A stretch of DNA of 13,290 bases, from positions 1 through 13,290 of the forward strand of contig CAYHAA010000032.1 of NCBI GenBank assembly GCA_964354495.1, written 5' to 3'. The stretch is from an uncultured archaeon. GTDB lineage: Archaea; Asgardarchaeota; Thorarchaeia; Thorarchaeales; Thorarchaeaceae. The notes under the pieces were generated by a model. That model had not been told where the DNA came from. It was given only the letters and a program-made list of their open reading frames with translations, and ran no database searches. Shown in pieces: positions 6,958 through 13,290 of the stretch; position 1 is the stretch's first letter, and every line of letters starts with the position of its first letter. The position numbers and the translations under genes were made by a program.

Positions 6958-7130
6958 TTCACCTGAGAATCTGCGGAACCTGACAGCGCACTGCATCATT
7001 CTTATTGATTTGCTTTTGCTTGAGGCTCCGAAAGCGGCCACTTTGTGTAGTCATCCACTTGGTTCCCTGTGACCGAATTTCTTATCACGTTCCGGCCATC
7101 ATAGATTGATGTTCCGGGACGTGATTGGAC

Positions 7131-7723: not shown

Positions 7724-8416
7724 CTACTTCACTGCTTTGTGAATGGCTACAACACCGAAGCTCATCATTCTGTAGTCGACTTTTGAGAATCCAACCTCAT
7801 GAAGAATCTTAGACAACTCCTCGGCATCAAAGAATCTGGTGACTGAATATGAGAGATAGGCATAGCCAGTCCTCGATCCCGAGATAAGTCGCCCGAGCGT
7901 TTCGACAACTTTCCTTGTATACAGATGGTATGCGGCTCGGATTGGTGTTGATCTCGGCTGACTGGTTTCAAGATTGATGAATCGTCCTCCTGGCTTCAGA
8001 ATACGATTAAACTCTCTGAGGAACTCCATCAATCGCCCACGGTTTCCAGTGATGTTCCTCGTGGCAAATGAGATTACTACAAAATCAAAAGTGTTTTCGA
8101 GAAAAGGAAGTCGGCGGGAGTCAGCAAGAGAAACAGATGCTTTCCGAAGTTCTGGCTTGCTTCTGGCCCTTGAAATCATGGGAAAAGAAAAATCAGTAAG
8201 AACTATTCTTGTCCCGGGACTAGCGAGCCTTTGGAGATTGACTGCCATTTCTCCAGTCCCGCCACAGACCTCCAACCATAATGCGCCACCGTCAGCCGCA
8301 GCAATCTGCGAGGCTTTCTTCCGCCAAGGAATATCCAAGCCAAGGGTAAGAACATGATTCACTAGCTCGTACCGATTCGCAATCTCTGAGAAGATTGTGA
8401 GAAGCCCTTTGCTCAT
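7724..8416 (-). CDS. menG: UbiE/MenG family quinone biosynthesis C-methyltransferase (~230 aa)
   Basis: FSEIANRYELVNHVLTLGLDIPWRK, SAM motif I LEVCGGTGE, DSRRLPFLENTFDFVVISFATRN, EFNRILKPGGRF, GYAYLSYSV, FGVVAIHKAVK. Confidence 0.88.
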   Translation of the reverse strand: MSKGLLTIFSEIANRYELVNHVLTLGLDIPWRKKASQIAAADGGALWLEVCGGTGEMAVNLQRLASPGTRIVLTDFSFPMISRARSKPELRKASVSLADSRRLPFLENTFDFVVISFATRNITGNRGRLMEFLREFNRILKPGGRFINLETSQPRSTPIRAAYHLYTRKVVETLGRLISGSRTGYAYLSYSVTRFFDAEELSKILHEVGFSKVDYRMMSFGVVAIHKAVK

Positions 8417-8535
8417 TGGATATACACCTATTCGTAAAGAAACCACGTTCTAAGGGACAAATGGGTGAGCAAGATAGTGCCTGTTGATAATGTCGACCAT
8501 GAAGGCTAACACAGACTCTTCTTGGTTTCGTCCTT

Positions 8536-9132
8536 CTAATCCTTTCCGTATAGAAGATGCATTGGCCACCTTCTCGTCGAGAGTCCGATACTGACTGGGT
8601 GGTTGTGTGTTGACAGTGACCCTGAACTCTTGTGAAAGTGGTAATGAGCAATACCTAGACTTGCGATGATATCAGGAAATGGTAGAGGAATAAGCCCCGT
8701 TATCCGCCATATTTCGAGATTGAAGAGGATGAGATAGGGAAGAATGATCTCGGCCAGAAGCAAGACCACGGTAGCCACGGATGCTAAGCGAATGTTCAAC
8801 TTCCCTCGGGAGTACATGAGTGTGTTGGCATAAAGCATCAATCCCACGACCACCCAACTCGATGACATCGTCAGATACAGCAGTGTGTCGCTTATGGCGT
8901 ATGAACCGAAGAGGGAATCATCCCACCATCGAAGCAGGTCCCAACATGGAACAAAATGTGCTCGAGCAACACTAATGAATCCCGGAAGGAAGCACAACAG
9001 TGCATAGGCCCACCATGAAGGAGCCGGCAAACCTACCGCTTCGGCCACAACTAGAGCAGGCATAACAATGGCTATAGGACTGAAGAACGTTATGACCAGT
9101 ACTGCAAGCGGAAACAGGTTTACCTTTGACAT
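8536..9132 (-). CDS. Hypothetical multi-pass membrane protein (198 aa)
   Basis: ATG with GAGGA SD; about five hydrophobic segments; no recognised family; core-like GC (32/60 in the line starting 8761). Confidence 0.65.
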   Translation of the reverse strand: MSKVNLFPLAVLVITFFSPIAIVMPALVVAEAVGLPAPSWWAYALLCFLPGFISVARAHFVPCWDLLRWWDDSLFGSYAISDTLLYLTMSSSWVVVGLMLYANTLMYSRGKLNIRLASVATVVLLLAEIILPYLILFNLEIWRITGLIPLPFPDIIASLGIAHYHFHKSSGSLSTHNHPVSIGLSTRRWPMHLLYGKD

Positions 9133-9253
9133 TCCTCACATAGCCTGCCCCAGGGCACGTAGTACATATTATCTTCTCTTTTTTCAAACTTCGCATTTCC
9201 GCAGAATGAGTCAAGTAACTGACTTCTCAAACTGCATCAAGCAACCAAAAACA

Positions 9254-9340
9254 GACAACAGAGGATGGAAGTACCACTACAAAACCCTTGGACAACTCTA
9301 GGTACTGTATGAACACACTTTCAGTCTGCACGCCTCGGAC
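9254..9340 (+). repeat. Direct repeat copy 1 (87 bp): 23S rRNA 3' terminus plus downstream flank (minus strand)
   Basis: GACAACAGAGGATGGAAGTAC-16 nt-GACAACTCTAGGTACTGTATGAACACACTTT-CAGTCTGCACGCCTCGGAC. The 31-nt core (9291-9321) is identical in all three copies, and 9291-9333 is identical to 13248-13290 (43 nt). Confidence 0.97.
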
Positions 9341-9424
9341 ATTAGTACAGGTGAGCTGAACACCTCGCCGGAGCTTGGTGCTTACACCCCCTGCCTATTT
9401 ACCTCGTCTTCTACGAGAGTCCTC
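9326..9424 (-). rRNA. rrl: Orphan 3'-terminal fragment of archaeal 23S rRNA (domain VI, H99-H101); not a complete gene
   Basis: Minus strand GAGGACTCTCGTAGAAGACGAGGTAAATAGGCAGGGGGTGTAAGCACC...GGTGTTCAGCTCACCTGTACTAATGTCCGAGG matches the archaeal 23S 3' end. Pairings are intact: H99 GGAC/GTCC, H100 CTCGT-AGAAG-ACGAG, H101 GCAGG/CCTGT and GCACC/GGTGT. The upstream GCATCTAAG landmark (H97 loop region) is absent. The mature 3' end position is approximate. Confidence 0.88.
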
Positions 9425-9704
9425 GTTCCTAGACTCGATGTTACTGTCACCAGCCCCGCACTTCATTCTCGATGGCAGTCACACAGAGCCCTCATTCGGA
9501 TGAAAACGCTCGGCAAGTGGATGTGGAGTTCTTGCTAGACTATTCGAGTATTGCCACTACAACCATCTGTGCAAGTGAAATAGTTACAAGTTTTGTCGCA
9601 GAATATATAAGAGAACATTGTTTGTAATAGAGTGGAATTAGACTGAAATTAGAAATCACCAGATTACATCTTCCTTTATTGGCCAGAAAAAAGAGAGGTT
9701 TTTT

Positions 9705-10181
9705 TTGAACTCACGAACAAAAGAGGTGCTGGATAGTGACTGGATTCCGTCTTCAACTATTGTTTCACTAGTAGTTGGTTCCACTGCCCTTTTCGGGCCC
9801 ATATTCTTCTTTGTTGGTGCAAATCCACATGTTGACCTTGTATTTGAGGTGTATTCTCTCTTCTGGCAGTTATCCTCTCAGGGAGGACCATTAGTATTCA
9901 TTGCAGGATTTTCCAGTACTTATTCATTCTTCATGCCACTGCGAATTTTATATGTTTGGCAACTTCACAGATGCTATGATAGTCGTACATCAAGGCGATT
10001 GACATTGGTTGTTGGATTGATTGCTGAACTCCAGACTCTAATCACTCTCTTTATGATGTCATACGACCCCCTCTCTCCATACCCTCAACTGACTGGTCCA
10101 GTTCCATTGTTGTATCTTATGGGAGTTTTGTTTCTTATTACAGTGCCACCACGAACGCAAGGAAAGGAGTGGAATGATTAG
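9705..10181 (+). CDS. Hypothetical multi-pass membrane protein, paralog of 12685-13248
   Basis: Shared pattern with 12685: YSLFWQL/ESLMWRL, QLHRCY/QFNRYN, VGLIAELQ/VAILSELQ, PVPLLYLMGVLFLITVP/PIPTVLIVSIILLIFVP, then W. TTG start is uncertain. Confidence 0.75.
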   Translation: MNSRTKEVLDSDWIPSSTIVSLVVGSTALFGPIFFFVGANPHVDLVFEVYSLFWQLSSQGGPLVFIAGFSSTYSFFMPLRILYVWQLHRCYDSRTSRRLTLVVGLIAELQTLITLFMMSYDPLSPYPQLTGPVPLLYLMGVLFLITVPPRTQGKEWND

Positions 10182-10232
10182 ATTCTACTAGAGAATCAAG
10201 GGATTTTTGTGGAAGCGCCTGATCCAACGAAG

Positions 10233-10796
10233 TCATGGTTTTCGTTTCATTCTTCTCCGATATAGGACAAGGCTTAGGTATAGAATCAAAAGCGGTATTC
10301 CGGCTATGAGCGAAAGAGGGAGAACAATCTTCAATAGAGCAATATCCGGTGAGATTGGATTGATAGTTGAACCTCCAATTCGAGTGATTGTTAGATTGAT
10401 GTTAATGATTGCGATGTAGCCCGTATTCGTAGCATTCACGGTATAATATGCACTAAATGGGATGAAGGTTGAATTTCGATGCCGAGTGTCACCGCGATGT
10501 AACATAGTCTTCGAGTTCGTATCAGAGCTAATCCTGATTCGCACTATAGCATCAACAATAGATGTATTGATTGGGTCTATATCAGACACAATAGAGTATA
10601 TCGAGTATGGCTGTAGTGTGATTCTTGTTATAAATGATTGATTAGCTGTAAGCTCAAGGTTAGTTCTTTGCAGAATGGGATTGTCCGTAGTTTGAGCTAC
10701 ACAGAATCCTGCCGGTAAGGTAATCAAAACTAAAGTAACAATGGCAATTTGCGTTCTTTTCGAACTCATCGAAAAGTTTCTGTTCCTGAAAGTCAT
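10233..10796 (-). CDS. Hypothetical type I membrane protein (signal/TM, beta-rich ectodomain, TM, basic tail)
   Basis: Hydrophobic N-terminus, sequons NQS/NTS/NST/NAT/NLT, C-terminal TM followed by YRRRMKRKP. Confidence 0.72.
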   Translation of the reverse strand: MTFRNRNFSMSSKRTQIAIVTLVLITLPAGFCVAQTTDNPILQRTNLELTANQSFITRITLQPYSIYSIVSDIDPINTSIVDAIVRIRISSDTNSKTMLHRGDTRHRNSTFIPFSAYYTVNATNTGYIAIININLTITRIGGSTINPISPDIALLKIVLPLSLIAGIPLLILYLSLVLYRRRMKRKP

Positions 10797-10823
10797 TTGC
10801 CTATCAATGTACTCCCTAAGGAG

Positions 10824-11324
10824 TTAATACCAGTACATCCACAACTCCGGCTCTCCTCCGAAGAACCATAAGTCTCTTTGCGCATCAAAGAAGCGGCTAC
10901 TGTCTGTGATTCTGATTTCAAGTGTGGTGGAGGATGCATCAGTAATGGTTACTTGAAAATCCTCGGAAGAGGGACCAATATCGTCTGCATAAGTGTAACT
11001 AGCAGATGAACCCCATCTGTACCATAGCCGCATCAGTTCTGGGTTCTGCGCATCTCCGCCATCGTAATCGATTCGTATCTTATAGACGTCCGCACTCTGA
11101 TCAATGCCATTTATTTGAAACCAAATGTCAAGTCCGTAGGACCACACGGGATTTCCTTCCAGAGCCTCATTATCATCTTCGTCCCAATATCCAATAGTAT
11201 TCTCATAATCATCATAATATTCTACTCCAACATCAGTCCACGCAGCAACAGGTTGAACCACGAATGCAACAATCAAGAGTGCAAAGAATGATGGAAACAG
11301 AAGTCTATCAATAATCTTCTTCAT
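10824..11324 (-). CDS. Secreted hypothetical protein ending FGGEPELWMYWY (166 aa), paralog of 12099-12587
   Basis: Strong SD AAGGAGG before ATG 11324; signal peptide ending VAA-W; about 80 identities in ~140 mature residues with 12099 (manual count). Confidence 0.88.
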   Translation of the reverse strand: MKKIIDRLLFPSFFALLIVAFVVQPVAAWTDVGVEYYDDYENTIGYWDEDDNEALEGNPVWSYGLDIWFQINGIDQSADVYKIRIDYDGGDAQNPELMRLWYRWGSSASYTYADDIGPSSEDFQVTITDASSTTLEIRITDSSRFFDAQRDLWFFGGEPELWMYWY

Positions 11325-11408
11325 AATTCTTCCTCCTTGCAAAGAAATGAACCGACGCCGCCCCTCTTCCCACATTTGACATTTGTTTTCAAGGCCCATT
11401 ATGATTTA

Positions 11409-11846
11409 ATGCATAAGAAGAATATGAGTGTTTTGGCACAGGAGATTTCGGATGCCTATTCTCTCTTTCGGCATAAGATTGCTGCATTGGATCTGGCTCA
11501 TTATATGGTGCAATCTGAGTGTTTGTGGGATGTAGACAAGATTGTGTCAGCGCCTAATCAAGCAGATGAACCCCTTCAGTCGATAATTGTAATGAAATCC
11601 TTTAAGGAAATAATGACAAATCCTGACACTATTTCATTAACGCCCAGAATTCGAGAACGACTGTTCGTATTGCTGCAGGAATCGAAAGGCAGGTTTGAAA
11701 GAGTTGAATGGATTGTGAATGCGATTTCAGGTGCGATTGCTTTTACATCTGATGAGCAAATACAGTCCGCAACATTATCAATACTCAATGTTGGTTATGG
11801 GACTGAGATTTCAAAGAGAATTCGAAGTGATTGTAATTTCTCTTAG
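11409..11846 (+). CDS. Hypothetical soluble, probably alpha-helical protein (~145 aa)
   Basis: Open 438 nt in an AT-rich region, divergent from 11324; amphipathic helical pattern; no family recognised; start could be 11409 or 11424. Confidence 0.5.
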   Translation: MHKKNMSVLAQEISDAYSLFRHKIAALDLAHYMVQSECLWDVDKIVSAPNQADEPLQSIIVMKSFKEIMTNPDTISLTPRIRERLFVLLQESKGRFERVEWIVNAISGAIAFTSDEQIQSATLSILNVGYGTEISKRIRSDCNFS

Positions 11847-11900
11847 AATCCAGATATTGCTGCTATACTCAATAGATTACAAAAGTGATAATGGAGAATA

Positions 11901-11986
11901 GACATCAGAGGATGGAAGCACATTACGAACTCCTGAGACAACTCTAGGTACTGTATGAACACACTTTTAGTCGTCATGCCTCGGAC
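11901..11986 (+). repeat. Direct repeat copy 2 (86 bp), most diverged
   Basis: GACATCAGAGGATGGAAGCAC-15 nt-31-nt core (11937-11967)-TAGTCGTCATGCCTCGGAC; homology stops at GGAC (H99 3' strand). Confidence 0.96.
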
Positions 11987-12098
11987 AGACTGAAGTAGTC
12001 ACGCGATGAGGGAGGATTGTTTAGAAAAACATATATGCAAAAGGAGTGTTATTAAAGCTGGATGTTCTCCTGTAATATCTAGGTGGTGAAGAAGAGGA

Positions 12099-12587
12099 GT
12101 GCGGAAACAAAGAGCGGCTATTTTATCCCTATTTTTGATTAGCATGATAATGATTTTAGGTCTGCCAGTTCTTGCGTGGAGTGATATTGGCGTTGAATAT
12201 TATGATGGTGTCAAAGAAATATACGGCGAATGGTCTGAAAACGATAATACAGCTCTTGAAGAATATGTCGGGCTATGGGCGTACTATTTAGACATTGAAT
12301 TCAATATTACTAATGTAGATCAGAATGCAGACGTCTACAAAATTCGAGTAGATTATGGCGGATCGGATGGCGATGAAGCTATTCAGCTCTGGTATAGATG
12401 GGGTTCGTCTGGTTCTTGGATATATTGTACTACGTTATCTTCTATACAGGATCTCTATTATACAATTACTGATGCATCGAGTACCCTATTACAGATCAAA
12501 ATCATGGATAATACTCGTATTTTTGATTTTAATCGAGACCAATGGGACTTCGGAGGAGAACCCGAGCTCTGGATGTATTGGTATTAA
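12099..12587 (+). CDS. Secreted hypothetical protein ending FGGEPELWMYWY (162 aa), paralog of 10824-11324
   Basis: GTG start after GAGGA; signal peptide ending VLA-W; conserved blocks GVEYYD, ADVYKIR, LWYRWGSS, TITDASST, FGGEPELWMYWY. Confidence 0.88.
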   Translation: MRKQRAAILSLFLISMIMILGLPVLAWSDIGVEYYDGVKEIYGEWSENDNTALEEYVGLWAYYLDIEFNITNVDQNADVYKIRVDYGGSDGDEAIQLWYRWGSSGSWIYCTTLSSIQDLYYTITDASSTLLQIKIMDNTRIFDFNRDQWDFGGEPELWMYWY

Positions 12588-12684
12588 GAATTTGCACAAG
12601 CAAGCCTATTGAATATGATTATTGTCAATTCCAATCATTTGTTATAGGTAGCATTATGATGCGGAAAACTACGGTGACTTAGAA

Positions 12685-13248
12685 TTGAGTGCCTCTAAAC
12701 GCGTTAATTGGAAATTTCAACTAAGTCCGACTGAGGTGATGCTGCTACTGCTGTTTGTGGTTCTCTTCCTTCCTACATTTATCACTCTTCGTAACATATC
12801 GAGTTCACTTGCCTATTCCATCGAGTCTTTGATGTGGCGACTGCTTTTCTACCGTGACGGTTCTGTGGATTTTAGAATTGTTCCCTATTTTTTTATGCTT
12901 CAGGACCATCTACTGAAGTATCTGCTAGTCATTCAATTCAACAGGTATAACCGGCATGCAACAACCAAGATACGAGTTCTATTAGTCGCGATACTCAGCG
13001 AACTCCAGATGTTTCTGCTGATTGATATGCCTCAGATTATTGAAGGGATTCAGGGATTACATGCTTGGACTGCTTTCGTTTGGTATATCCCTATTCCTAC
13101 TGTTCTGATTGTTTCTATCATCTTATTGATATTTGTACCACGTCCGGAGTCTGAACCAATGTGGATTGATAAAGAAGAACAAAAAGCATGGTGGAAAACA
13201 AAGCAGAAAACGACATCAGAGGATGGAAGTACTTCACAAAACCCCTAG
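12685..13248 (+). CDS. Hypothetical multi-pass membrane protein, paralog of 9705-10181; C-terminus overlaps repeat copy 3
   Basis: About four hydrophobic segments; tail W-IDKEEQKAWW; the last 12 codons (TSEDGSTSQNP-stop) lie in the repeat. Confidence 0.8.
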   Translation: MSASKRVNWKFQLSPTEVMLLLLFVVLFLPTFITLRNISSSLAYSIESLMWRLLFYRDGSVDFRIVPYFFMLQDHLLKYLLVIQFNRYNRHATTKIRVLLVAILSELQMFLLIDMPQIIEGIQGLHAWTAFVWYIPIPTVLIVSIILLIFVPRPESEPMWIDKEEQKAWWKTKQKTTSEDGSTSQNP

Positions 13249-13290
13249 ACAACTCTAGGTACTGTATGAACACACTTTCAGTCTGCACGC
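13212..13290 (+). repeat. Direct repeat copy 3, cut by the window edge; predicted flank of the intact 23S rRNA gene (minus strand)
   Basis: GACATCAGAGGATGGAAGTAC-15 nt-31-nt core (13248-13278)-CAGTCTGCACGC; identical to copy 1 over its last 43 nt. Confidence 0.95.

What the first reader, a model, noticed from the sequence alone, without database searches (positions are those of the whole stretch)
9326..9424. Orphan 23S rRNA 3' fragment with fully intact H99-H101 pairing
Seen: all three terminal helices pair (GGAC/GTCC; CTCGT/ACGAG; GCAGG/CCTGT; GCACC/GGTGT), yet upstream 23S landmarks are missing and the fragment faces an AT-rich module. Established: Pyrococcus furiosus 23S is circularly permuted, with the circular precursor reopened at H98 so that H99-H101 moves to the 5' end. 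Inference: the fragment boundary near H98 may be a recombination crossover, an RNA-derived copy of a processing product, or a separately transcribed 3' piece of a split 23S.
Basis: partly seen in the sequence, partly recalled or inferred. Interest (0 to 1): 0.7.

Follow-up and report, generated by a model that had tools for sequence, protein, structure and literature searches.

The report
Displaced spare end of 23S rRNA gene
This is a real but almost certainly silent spare copy of the last ~280 bases of the 23S rRNA gene of a Thorarchaeote (Asgard archaeon), left behind when foreign gene cassettes carrying their own replacement gene end were inserted into the organism's only 23S gene; it marks the end of that gene as an insertion hot spot without a recognisable integrase.

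Summary
The fragment is real: window 9337-9424(-) matches archaeal LSU rRNA model positions 2885-2973 (63.8 bits, E 9e-18, all pairs canonical). It is longer than reported. It runs 9247-9524(-) and comprises 6 nt of the H94 3' strand, an ES39/H98-like stretch, H99-H101, the mature 3' end and the 76-nt trailer (3' strand of the processing stem) up to a T-run. It is the outermost of three same-strand tail copies (A 9247-9524, B 11897-11987, C 13207-13290 continuing on contig C17). They lie in ~17 kb of low-GC variable DNA between the genome's only complete 23S and a conserved UbiE-type methyltransferase. Seven congeneric Thorarchaeota genomes also hold orphan tails; four show same-strand arrays. 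Contigs from four other studies bridge both junctions of A, so it is not an assembly chimera. The resident 23S is 99% identical to sister species G012 up to position 2914 and diverges abruptly at 2915. Orphans C and A begin at 2906 and 2908. Copy A is a mosaic: long-type ES39 5' half, a 165-nt core 96-100% identical to G012's working 23S, and a third trailer type; its ES39 no longer folds. Best reading: a displaced gene end, a recombination scar. It is not a Pyrococcus-like permuted product or a split-rRNA piece. No integrase was found. The scan had already noted this island on the neighbouring contig of the same genome, not on other DNA.

The parts
9247..9524 (-). Copy A: the complete orphan 23S tail. 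It comprises 6 nt of the H94 3' strand, a chimeric ES39/H98, H99-H101, the mature 3' end and the trailer.
   Evidence: both junctions are bridged by independent contigs
9430..9517 (-). ES39/H98-like segment of copy A. It is chimeric: the 5' half is long-type (73% to G017) and the 3' strand is short-type (96-100% to G006, G012 and copy C), so the basal stem cannot form.
9337..9424 (-). H99-H101 (model positions 2885-2973), fully paired. The H101 pair allele is CA/TG, as in G012 and G024, against GT/AC in the resident gene.
9247..9322 (-). The 76-nt 3' trailer, which is the 3' strand of the leader/trailer processing stem. It ends in a T-run (9247-9251).
9528..11896 (.). Low-GC cassette between copies A and B. 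It holds ORFs 9705-10181(+), a three-TM protein; 10233-10796(-); 10824-11399(-), a signal-peptide protein; and 11337-11846(+). None has a family match.
11897..11987 (-). Copy B: a partial tail made of about the last 20 nt of the 23S plus a trailer. The trailer is of the type carried by G012's real 23S.
   Evidence: the junction is bridged by X7 record 24
11988..13206 (.). Low-GC cassette between copies B and C. It holds ORF 12099-12587(+), a paralogue of 10824-11399, and ORF 12685-13248(+), a three-TM protein with a paralogue beside copy D on C15.
13207..13290 (-). Copy C, distal part. It continues on contig C17:1-~205 through an exact 41-nt overlap. It carries a short, G012-like ES39, and its 5' end abuts the right end of a TnpB element.
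7724..8446 (-). UbiE/COQ5-type methyltransferase, the conserved gene on the far side of the island in G012, G017 and G006.
8536..9132 (-). A 198-aa membrane-protein ORF between copy A and UbiE. It is not conserved at this place in relatives.

Best explanation
Copy A is a displaced, non-functional 3' end ('tail') of the organism's single 23S rRNA gene. In this Thorarchaeota genus, foreign DNA is repeatedly inserted into the end of the 23S gene. Each incoming segment carries its own replacement tail (ES39, H99-H101, the mature 3' end and the processing-stem trailer) followed by cargo genes. The gene therefore stays whole while the previous tail is pushed downstream.

Repetition has produced a same-strand series: 23S, new tail, cargo, old tail, cargo, older tail, conserved flank gene. 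Copy A is the outermost member in this genome.

Shown here: the layout, its presence in relatives, the abrupt switch of the resident gene at the same site where the orphans begin, the mosaic make-up of A, the exchange of cargo between species, and the absence of a recognisable integrase.

Inferred: insertion and spread work mainly by homologous recombination. The conserved 23S body is one homology arm and the orphan tail is the other, and crossovers inside the tail give hybrids such as A. The initial break at the base of ES39 may be made by an RNA-guided TnpB nuclease, whose guide-side flank is that very site beside copy C. The orphan itself probably does nothing for the cell.
For: Layout:
- There is one full 23S, and tail copies A, B and C lie on the same strand downstream of it.
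- C32 joins C17 through an exact 41-nt overlap that only these two contig ends carry.
- UbiE is the conserved far flank. The interval from the 23S to UbiE is 2.2 kb in G017, about 3 kb in G006, 2.3 kb with two orphans in G012, and 17.4 kb with three orphans in G000.

Spread in the genus:
- Seven other species genomes of the genus hold orphan tails, and four of them (G012, G001, G009, G015) have two or three same-strand copies on one contig.

Reality of the fragment:
- Contigs from four other studies bridge A's right junction (8717-9321) and left junction (9409-9669, 9396-9700, 9450-9604).

Precise site:
- G000's 23S differs from G012's at 29 of the first 2914 positions, is 100% identical over 2740-2914, and diverges from 2915.
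- Orphan C starts at 2906 and orphan A at 2908.

Functional ancestry and recombination:
- The H101 pair covaries across species.
- A carries two compensated swaps relative to the resident gene.
- A's 165-nt core is 96-100% identical to G012's working 23S, while its ES39 5' half and distal trailer come from other types.
- B carries a G012-type trailer and G012-c2 a G014-type trailer.

Tail and cargo travel together:
- B and G009-c1 share right flanks, as do the G000 resident tail and the G017:C133 orphan.
- The island's HEPN gene is 94% identical over 1016 nt between G000 and G014, against 75-87% for UbiE.

No integrase:
- Pfam, PHROGs and NCBIfam scans of 30 ORFs of the window and of the islands found no recombinase other than the TnpB gene.

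Decay:
- A's ES39 no longer folds.
- Older orphans (D, G009-c2, G015-c1) are only 76-85% identical, as expected of neutral relics.

TnpB:
- The right-end scaffold ends in GGTCA and is followed at once by the 23S sequence at the ES39 base, which is the start of copy C.
Against: - No enzyme can be tied to copy A. A profile of the TnpB right end finds no relic beside A, beside B or in any relative's array, and tblastn finds no TnpB remnant in the window.
- A and C start within 2 nt of each other although their left flanks are unrelated. Four independent short orphans also start at tail position 189-190 (P about 0.006 under a uniform model, tested post hoc). Such discrete sites fit a site-specific process better than random crossovers, unless the junctions are inherited as homology arms.
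- The order of events cannot be reconstructed, because every tail is a mosaic.
- The test of whether A's trailer is the cognate partner of the resident leader was not diagnostic.
- All the genomes are metagenome bins, and no single read or contig spans the whole array.
- Whether A is silent was not tested.
Confidence: 0.68

Rival explanations
1. The tail copies are attachment-site duplicates made by a site-specific recombinase. This could be an unrecognised integrase encoded in the island, or an enzyme encoded elsewhere in the genome that acts in trans, as in integrons or Xer-exploiting elements. It would cut at defined points of the 23S tail.
For: The copies are direct repeats of the target's 3' end bounding low-GC cargo, as at tRNA genes. 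The junction sites are discrete: 2906-2908 twice plus the resident breakpoint at 2915, and four orphans at tail position 189-190. Several cassette ORFs have no detectable family and could hide an enzyme.
Against: No recombinase domain appears among 30 ORFs of the window and the islands in three libraries. Many cassettes are only 0.8-1.3 kb with one small ORF. The other left junctions are scattered at 138-181, 199 and 234. The shared segments are 60-280 nt long and mosaic, not a short identical core.
Confidence: 0.15
2. Copy A is what remains of a second rRNA operon that decayed in place.
For: It evolved as part of a working 23S, as the compensated pair changes show.
Against: Three copies lie in one orientation directly behind the only 23S. 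Several end at the same T-run and begin at discrete sites, and A and C begin where the resident gene switches ancestry. The same pattern recurs in relatives. A's core is 96-100% identical to a sister species' working gene, so it has not decayed.
Confidence: 0.05
3. Copy A is transcribed on its own and acts as an RNA. Possible roles are a free H99-H101 domain, a decoy for processing or assembly factors, or the 3' piece of a fragmented 23S.
For: H99-H101 and the trailer are intact. The trailer pairs with the resident leader at least as well as the resident trailer does, with a cofold gain of -42.3 against -32.7 kcal/mol. A TATA-like AT-rich box lies at about 9607-9616. In P. furiosus a free 129-nt H99-H101 fragment exists at a low level (PMC7758197).
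Against: The resident gene is complete. The orphan's ES39 is broken. Other orphans are truncated at various points or decayed, so no common RNA product is conserved. The TATA-like box more plausibly serves ORF 9705-10181.
Confidence: 0.05
4. The orphans are reverse-transcribed copies of the 3' end of the primary rRNA transcript. They would be primed at the terminator U-run and truncated at their 5' ends at the bases of stable helices.
For: Most copies share a constant 3' end at the T-run while their 5' ends vary. Several 5' ends fall at helix bases: the ES39 base, the H101 5' start (138/139) and the H101 3' end (189/190).
Against: All copies lie in the same orientation immediately behind the gene and are not dispersed. 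Homology with other loci continues 82-184 nt beyond the T-run. No reverse transcriptase was seen in the islands. The resident gene itself switches ancestry at the same site, which is a DNA-level event.
Confidence: 0.03
5. The fragment is an assembly or binning chimera created at the conserved rRNA sequence.
For: All the genomes are metagenome bins. The tail is a repeat, and contig C32 ends inside it.
Against: Both unique junctions of A, including the chimeric ES39, are present in independent contigs of four studies. A mis-join at shared words cannot create a junction between non-rRNA sequence and an internal tail position. Orphans occur in seven other genomes of the genus.
Confidence: 0.02

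Closest known systems
Genomic islands and proviruses integrated into the 3' end of tRNA/tmRNA genes (Reiter et al. 1989; archaeal tyrosine recombinases reviewed in PMC8371274)
   Same: The insert carries a replacement for the target gene's 3' end, so the gene stays intact and the old 3' end is left as a direct repeat at the far border. Tandem arrays arise from repeated use of the site. The cargo is foreign and low in GC.
   Different: The target is a 23S rRNA gene at the base of ES39, not a tRNA. The repeats are up to 280 nt long and mosaic. No integrase was found in 30 ORFs of the window and the islands.
SAR11 hypervariable region HVR2 between the sole 23S and 5S rRNA genes (Wilhelm et al. 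2007, PMC2217521)
   Same: Both are AT-rich, hypervariable islands of cell-surface and defence genes attached to a single-copy rRNA gene. In both, the rRNA genes are proposed as homologous-recombination anchors that let island variants spread.
   Different: SAR11 has a conserved rRNA gene on each side, and no duplicated rRNA ends are reported. Here only one side is an rRNA gene, and displaced partial tails mark successive insertions.
TnpB/omega-RNA elements of the IS200/IS605 type and the Asgard aCas1-TnpB loci named in earlier scan notes
   Same: Beside copy C, a TnpB right-end scaffold is followed directly by the 23S sequence at the ES39 base. Its guide would therefore match an uninserted short-ES39 23S gene. 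This fits guide-directed cutting of empty sites followed by recombinational repair.
   Different: Copy A, copy B and the relatives' arrays have no detectable TnpB end. The inserted unit is far larger than an IS and includes a rebuilt gene end. The TAM and the left end were not determined.
HeimM2 element of Candidatus Heimdallarchaeum (Wu et al. 2022, PMC8813620)
   Same: It is an Asgard mobile element with leucine-rich-repeat cargo, inserted directly beside the only copy of an rRNA gene. LRR proteins also occur in the G001 cassettes.
   Different: HeimM2 lies between the 16S gene and a tRNA gene, carries a homing-endonuclease homologue, and has no reported duplication of the rRNA end.
Circularly permuted 23S rRNA of Pyrococcus furiosus and Thermococcales (Birkedal et al. 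2020, PMC7758197)
   Same: The same region of the molecule is involved. H98/ES39 is a dispensable surface element at whose base the RNA can be broken.
   Different: That is RNA processing of a conventionally ordered gene. Here the event is in the DNA, the copy keeps H98 and the full trailer, and H99-H101 is not joined to H1.

Membership tests
Archaeal LSU rRNA (Rfam RF02540), as a gene fragment | Covariance-model match above the gathering score | tested here: met
   The match scores 63.8 bits against a gathering score of 50, covers model positions 2885-2973, and has no non-canonical pairs.
Archaeal LSU rRNA (Rfam RF02540), as a gene fragment | Complete gene (model positions 1-2987) | tested here: not met
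   Only the tail is present. The one full gene is at C17:12687-15795.
Integrase-mediated island at the 3' end of an RNA gene (att duplication) | Direct repeat of the target's 3' end at both borders of foreign DNA | tested here: met
   The resident tail and copies C, B and A lie on the same strand and bound low-GC cargo.
Integrase-mediated island at the 3' end of an RNA gene (att duplication) | Tyrosine or serine recombinase gene within or beside the island | tested here: not met
   None was found by Pfam, PHROGs or NCBIfam in 30 ORFs of the window and of the islands of G000, G001, G009, G012 and G015. ORFs without any family match remain.
Integrase-mediated island at the 3' end of an RNA gene (att duplication) | Short identical core at which strand exchange occurs | tested here: inconclusive
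   Junctions cluster at 2906-2915 and at tail position 189-190, but others are scattered and the repeats are long mosaics.
Pyrococcus-type permuted 23S, as the source of an RNA-derived copy | H98 removed and H99-H101 joined to H1 through the circularisation junction | tested here: not met
   Copy A keeps a 90-nt ES39/H98 and the full 76-nt trailer. It is followed by a protein gene, not by H1 (PMC7758197).
Pyrococcus-type permuted 23S, as the source of an RNA-derived copy | Mature RNA ends lie at the base of H98 | not testable with these tools
No RNA data were laid.
TnpB/omega-RNA (IS200/IS605-type) element flank | Right-end omega-RNA scaffold directly upstream of the fragment | tested here: not met
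   It is met for copy C. For copy A, the nhmmer profile of ten right ends finds nothing in the window apart from the element next to C.
Homologous-recombination-anchored hypervariable island at an rRNA gene (SAR11 HVR2 type) | Variable, compositionally deviant gene content between a single-copy rRNA gene and a conserved flank | tested here: met
   The 23S-to-UbiE interval ranges from 2.2 to 17.4 kb, its contents are unrelated between species, and its GC is 0.36-0.44.
Homologous-recombination-anchored hypervariable island at an rRNA gene (SAR11 HVR2 type) | Island cargo more similar between genomes than the flanking core genes | tested here: met
   The HEPN gene is 94% identical over 1016 nt between G000 and G014, against 75-87% for UbiE. 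This is one gene only.

The most novel reading that the evidence does not exclude
The orphan tails are working parts of a mobile system and not mere scars. Each island would consist of a replacement 23S tail, cargo and an old tail. It would spread between Thorarchaeota species without an integrase, using the 23S body and the old tail as homology arms. At least sometimes the spread would follow a TnpB/omega-RNA cut of uninserted 23S genes at the base of ES39. A side effect would be horizontal swapping of ES39 expansion-segment alleles (55-57 nt against 90-91 nt) in the only 23S gene.
Probability: 0.3. Interest if true: 0.8.

Novelty: new variant of a known kind. Interest (0 to 1): 0.6.

Why it matters
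Single-copy rRNA genes are usually treated as the most stable and vertically inherited part of an archaeal genome, and they are used as the yardstick for Asgard phylogeny.

Here the last 200-280 nt of the only 23S gene, including the ES39 expansion segment that is central to the debate on Asgard and eukaryote ribosome evolution (Penev 2020, PMC7594248), is replaced and shuffled between species. The replacement comes as a by-product of inserting surface-protein and defence cassettes. This has three consequences:

1. It offers a concrete mechanism for the patchy distribution of ES39 sizes.
2. It warns that the 3' domain of the 23S is a mosaic marker in this group.
3. It adds an rRNA gene to the list of island insertion targets, apparently without an integrase.

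For annotation, such orphan tails should not be counted as rRNA genes or taken as evidence of fragmented rRNA.

Tried and rejected
- **Default Rfam scan of the whole window.** It found nothing. The hit appears only with laxer filters on a short stretch.
- **TnpB element as carrier of the 23S piece.** I rejected this as a general explanation. About ten TnpB relatives in the genome lack any 23S piece, and no right-end relic lies beside A, B or the relatives' arrays.
- **'Copy A is the cognate partner of the resident leader'.** The first cofold result looked supportive. A cross-species matrix then showed that the leaders are too conserved: A's trailer is the best partner for the G000, G012 and G017 leaders alike. 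I dropped the claim.
- **Reading the TnpB family's TAM from the left ends, to test for precise excision beside A.** The copies stay similar for more than 330 nt upstream of the start codon, so the left end was not located. The test was not completed.
- **Integrase search.** Scans in Pfam, PHROGs and NCBIfam were negative.
- **The search for related loci with ORF 12685-13248.** No relatives were found in the genome collection.
- **Bacterial-type promoter and terminator scan.** It found nothing and does not apply to archaea.
- **Sequencing runs.** No run held half of the sampled words, so the source sample was probably not indexed. Window 12008-13133 had no cover in the four runs laid apart from one thin bin at 12500-12663, which says nothing either way.
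- **Apparent precise inversion of copy D relative to the paralogous ORF on C15.** This is more simply explained by homology ending at the ORF's stop codon.
- **Literature searches for reported orphan or partial 23S ends bounding islands.** No direct precedent was found.

Full report
**Observation**

The whole-window Rfam scan at gathering thresholds found nothing. A permissive scan of 9100-9700 gave one clear hit: LSU_rRNA_archaea at 9337-9424 on the minus strand. It covers model positions 2885-2973 of 2987, scores 63.8 bits (E 8.8e-18) and has no non-canonical pair flagged. The stretch folds into H99/H100/H101 at -35.8 kcal/mol, z = -2.73 against shuffles. The window is a whole contig (C32) of a 3.3-Mb, 51-contig genome. 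That genome has one complete 23S, at C17:12687-15795 on the minus strand, so the window copy is an orphan.

**True extent**

BLAST against the genome shows that the likeness to the resident gene continues 76 nt beyond the mature 3' end and stops at a T-run (window 9247-9251). The resident 23S has a 91-nt insertion between model positions 2882 and 2883, which is an enlarged H98/ES39. Copy A continues upstream through a 90-nt ES39-like stretch to ACATCCA at window 9518-9524. The real 23S tails of other species of the genus also match the resident gene only from H99 onward, because ES39 is hypervariable. The 'boundary near H98' is therefore an artefact of homology searching. The 76-nt trailer is the 3' strand of a long leader/trailer processing stem, and the leader is not repeated anywhere in the genome.

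**Context**

There are further copies:
- B at window 11897-11987: about the last 20 nt of the 23S plus the trailer.
- C at window 13207-13290, continuing on C17:1-~205.
- D on C15.

The end of C32 and the start of C17 overlap by an exact 41-mer that only these two contig ends carry. In the RNA sense, the order is therefore: 23S; resident tail; about 12.5 kb holding a TPR protein, an unknown 397-aa protein, a HEPN protein, an unknown 1902-aa protein and a TnpB element; copy C; two small ORFs; copy B; four small ORFs; copy A; a 198-aa membrane protein; and a UbiE-type methyltransferase.

The DNA between the copies is low in GC. In the window it encodes small three-TM proteins and signal-peptide proteins with no family match.

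**Organism and relatives**

Record titles of the relatives identify the genus as Candidatus Thorarchaeota (OWC2, FT5_021, 4_1_July_SF_Bin37). In a genus of 28 species genomes, seven besides G000 hold orphan tails. Four of them have two or three same-strand copies on one contig (G012, G001, G009, G015). In G012 the array directly follows the full 23S and ends next to UbiE.

UbiE is the conserved far flank in G012, G017 and G006, and the 23S-to-UbiE interval ranges from 2.2 to 17.4 kb. Cassette contents are unrelated between species: LRR proteins, a sugar epimerase and a glycosyltransferase, Mrr, HsdM, an SMC-like ATPase, HEPN and YdjM. No integrase was detected in any library.

**Not an assembly artefact**

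Logan contigs from four separate studies bridge A's right junction (X1 record 2, 8717-9321). They also bridge its left junction, including the odd ES39: X5 record 11, 9409-9669; X7 record 19, 9396-9700; X1 record 4, 9450-9604. X7 record 24 (11256-11965) bridges B's junction. No single contig spans the whole copy.

**The copies come from working 23S genes and have recombined**

One H101 base-pair position covaries across species: GT/AC, CA/TG, CC/GG, GC/GC and AT/AT. A carries CA/TG, as do G012 and G024. The resident gene and C carry GT/AC.

Segment by segment, copy A has this make-up:
- The ES39 5' half is long-type: 73% to G017, 58% to the resident gene and about 30% to the short types.
- The ES39 3' strand, H99-H101, the 3' end and the first part of the stem (165 nt) are 96-100% identical to G012's working 23S.
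- The distal trailer is closest to G006, G017 and the resident gene (82-87%), and only 72% to G012.

Because the 5' and 3' basal strands of its ES39 come from different types, the stem cannot form. The region folds at -22.9 kcal/mol, worse than shuffles (z = +1.48), against about -39 kcal/mol for the real long ES39s.

C's ES39 (57 nt) is nearly identical to G012's real one (55 nt). B's trailer is of the G012 type, and G012-c2's trailer is of the G014 type.

**The insertion site is precise**

A full-length alignment shows that G000's 23S differs from G012's at only 29 of the first 2914 positions and at none of positions 2740-2914. It then diverges abruptly from 2915, the first variable base of ES39. 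Orphan C begins at 2906 and orphan A at 2908.

The resident gene's foreign part therefore starts where the displaced tails start. Short ES39 is the majority state in the genus (10 of 12 real tails). The resident long ES39 is therefore the import, and G012-like ancestral features survive in the orphans.

**Tail and cargo move together between species**

The left flanks of the orphans are all unrelated, and their junctions fall at tail positions of about 16-18, 138/139, 155-162, 172, 181, 189-190 (four copies), 199 and 234. The cluster of four has P about 0.006 under a uniform model, tested post hoc.

Right flanks are sometimes shared. B and G009-c1 share 184 nt, and the G000 resident tail and the G017:C133 orphan share 82 nt. 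The island's HEPN gene is 94% identical over 1016 nt to a gene 1.4-2.4 kb behind G014's 23S, whereas UbiE is only 75-87% identical between species.

**Role of TnpB**

An earlier scan note said that a TnpB right end abuts the displaced fragment. I had first dismissed the element as a neighbour and then re-tested it. Ten TnpB copies share a right-end scaffold ending in GGTCA. In the C17 copy, the next bases are the 23S sequence at the ES39 base, which is the start of copy C. A profile of these right ends finds no relic beside A, beside B or in the relatives' arrays. TnpB may therefore have made or exploited one junction, but it does not explain copy A. I could not locate the element's left end or its TAM.

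**Mechanism**

Shown:
- repeated insertion into the 23S end of segments that bring a replacement tail plus cargo;
- displacement of the earlier tails;
- recombination among the tails;
- exchange of cargo between species.

Inferred: the islands spread by homologous recombination, with the 23S body as the left arm and the orphan tail as the right arm. Resolution inside the right arm gives hybrids such as A. Inheritance of the arm's start would explain why A and C share a left end. An RNA-guided cut at the ES39 base may trigger some events. An unrecognised site-specific recombinase remains a serious rival, because the junctions are discrete.

**Comparison with known systems**

- The logic is that of tRNA-gene islands, but in an rRNA gene and without a visible integrase.
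- The ecology resembles SAR11 HVR2, a hypervariable island at the sole 23S and 5S genes with the rRNA genes as recombination anchors (PMC2217521).
- An Asgard precedent for an element beside the only rRNA gene is HeimM2 (PMC8813620).
- The Pyrococcus permutation (PMC7758197) concerns RNA processing at the same helix and is not what is seen here.
- I found no report of displaced 23S ends bounding cassettes.

**Verdict**

Interest is moderate to high because the marker gene and ES39 of an Asgard lineage turn out to be horizontally mosaic. The scan had already flagged the same island from the neighbouring contig of this genome, not from other DNA.

Noticed in passing
G000:C27:7054-7258 and G000:C6:~13450-13608: Other copies of the same TnpB family have structural-RNA sequence on their guide side. 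The C27 copy abuts a tRNA-Gly gene (7054-7128) in antisense, and the flank of the C6 copy looks like a tRNA T-arm. The family may generally sit at RNA genes.
   Followed up: partly
G009:C21:17991-21852: The 23S of relative G009 is 3862 nt long, with an insertion of roughly 750 nt near position 2576 that the other species lack. It may be an intron.
   Followed up: no
window 10824-11399 (-) and 12099-12587 (+): These are paralogous signal-peptide proteins that end in the shared motif GGEPELWMYWY, with no family match. They are paired in the cassettes with small three-TM proteins (9705-10181, 12685-13248 and perhaps 8536-9132).
   Followed up: partly
G000:C17:8302-9303 and G014:C2 about 57170-58180: A RiboL-PSP-type HEPN gene is 94% identical at DNA level between the islands behind the 23S genes of two species, far above the identity of the flanking core genes.
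   Followed up: partly
tail position 189-190 (window about 11985 for copy B; G012:C34:20979; G001:C33:4141; G009:C181:2693): Four orphans with unrelated left flanks and different trailer types all begin at (C)TACTAATGTCC, at the 3' end of H101. Two others begin at the 5' start of H101 (138/139). The reason for these discrete sites is unexplained.
   Followed up: partly
window 9345-9390: Contigs from other studies match the tail up to 9345, 9347, 9376 or 9388-9390 and then continue with unrelated sequence (loose ends). This suggests further orphan variants in natural populations.
   Followed up: no
G000, whole genome: The SSU_rRNA_archaea model found no 16S gene in this 97.7%-complete assembly, although an earlier scan note mentions a 16S with mini-introns in a Thorarchaeote. 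The 5S gene is unlinked, on C24.
   Followed up: no
window 9607-9616: A TATA-like AATATATAAG box lies in the AT-rich spacer between copy A and ORF 9705-10181. Its orientation is unknown.
   Followed up: no
G000:C15:11533-12228: Copy D (85% identical, H101 partly broken) lies away from the 23S, beside a paralogue of ORF 12685-13248 in a second low-GC patch.
   Followed up: partly
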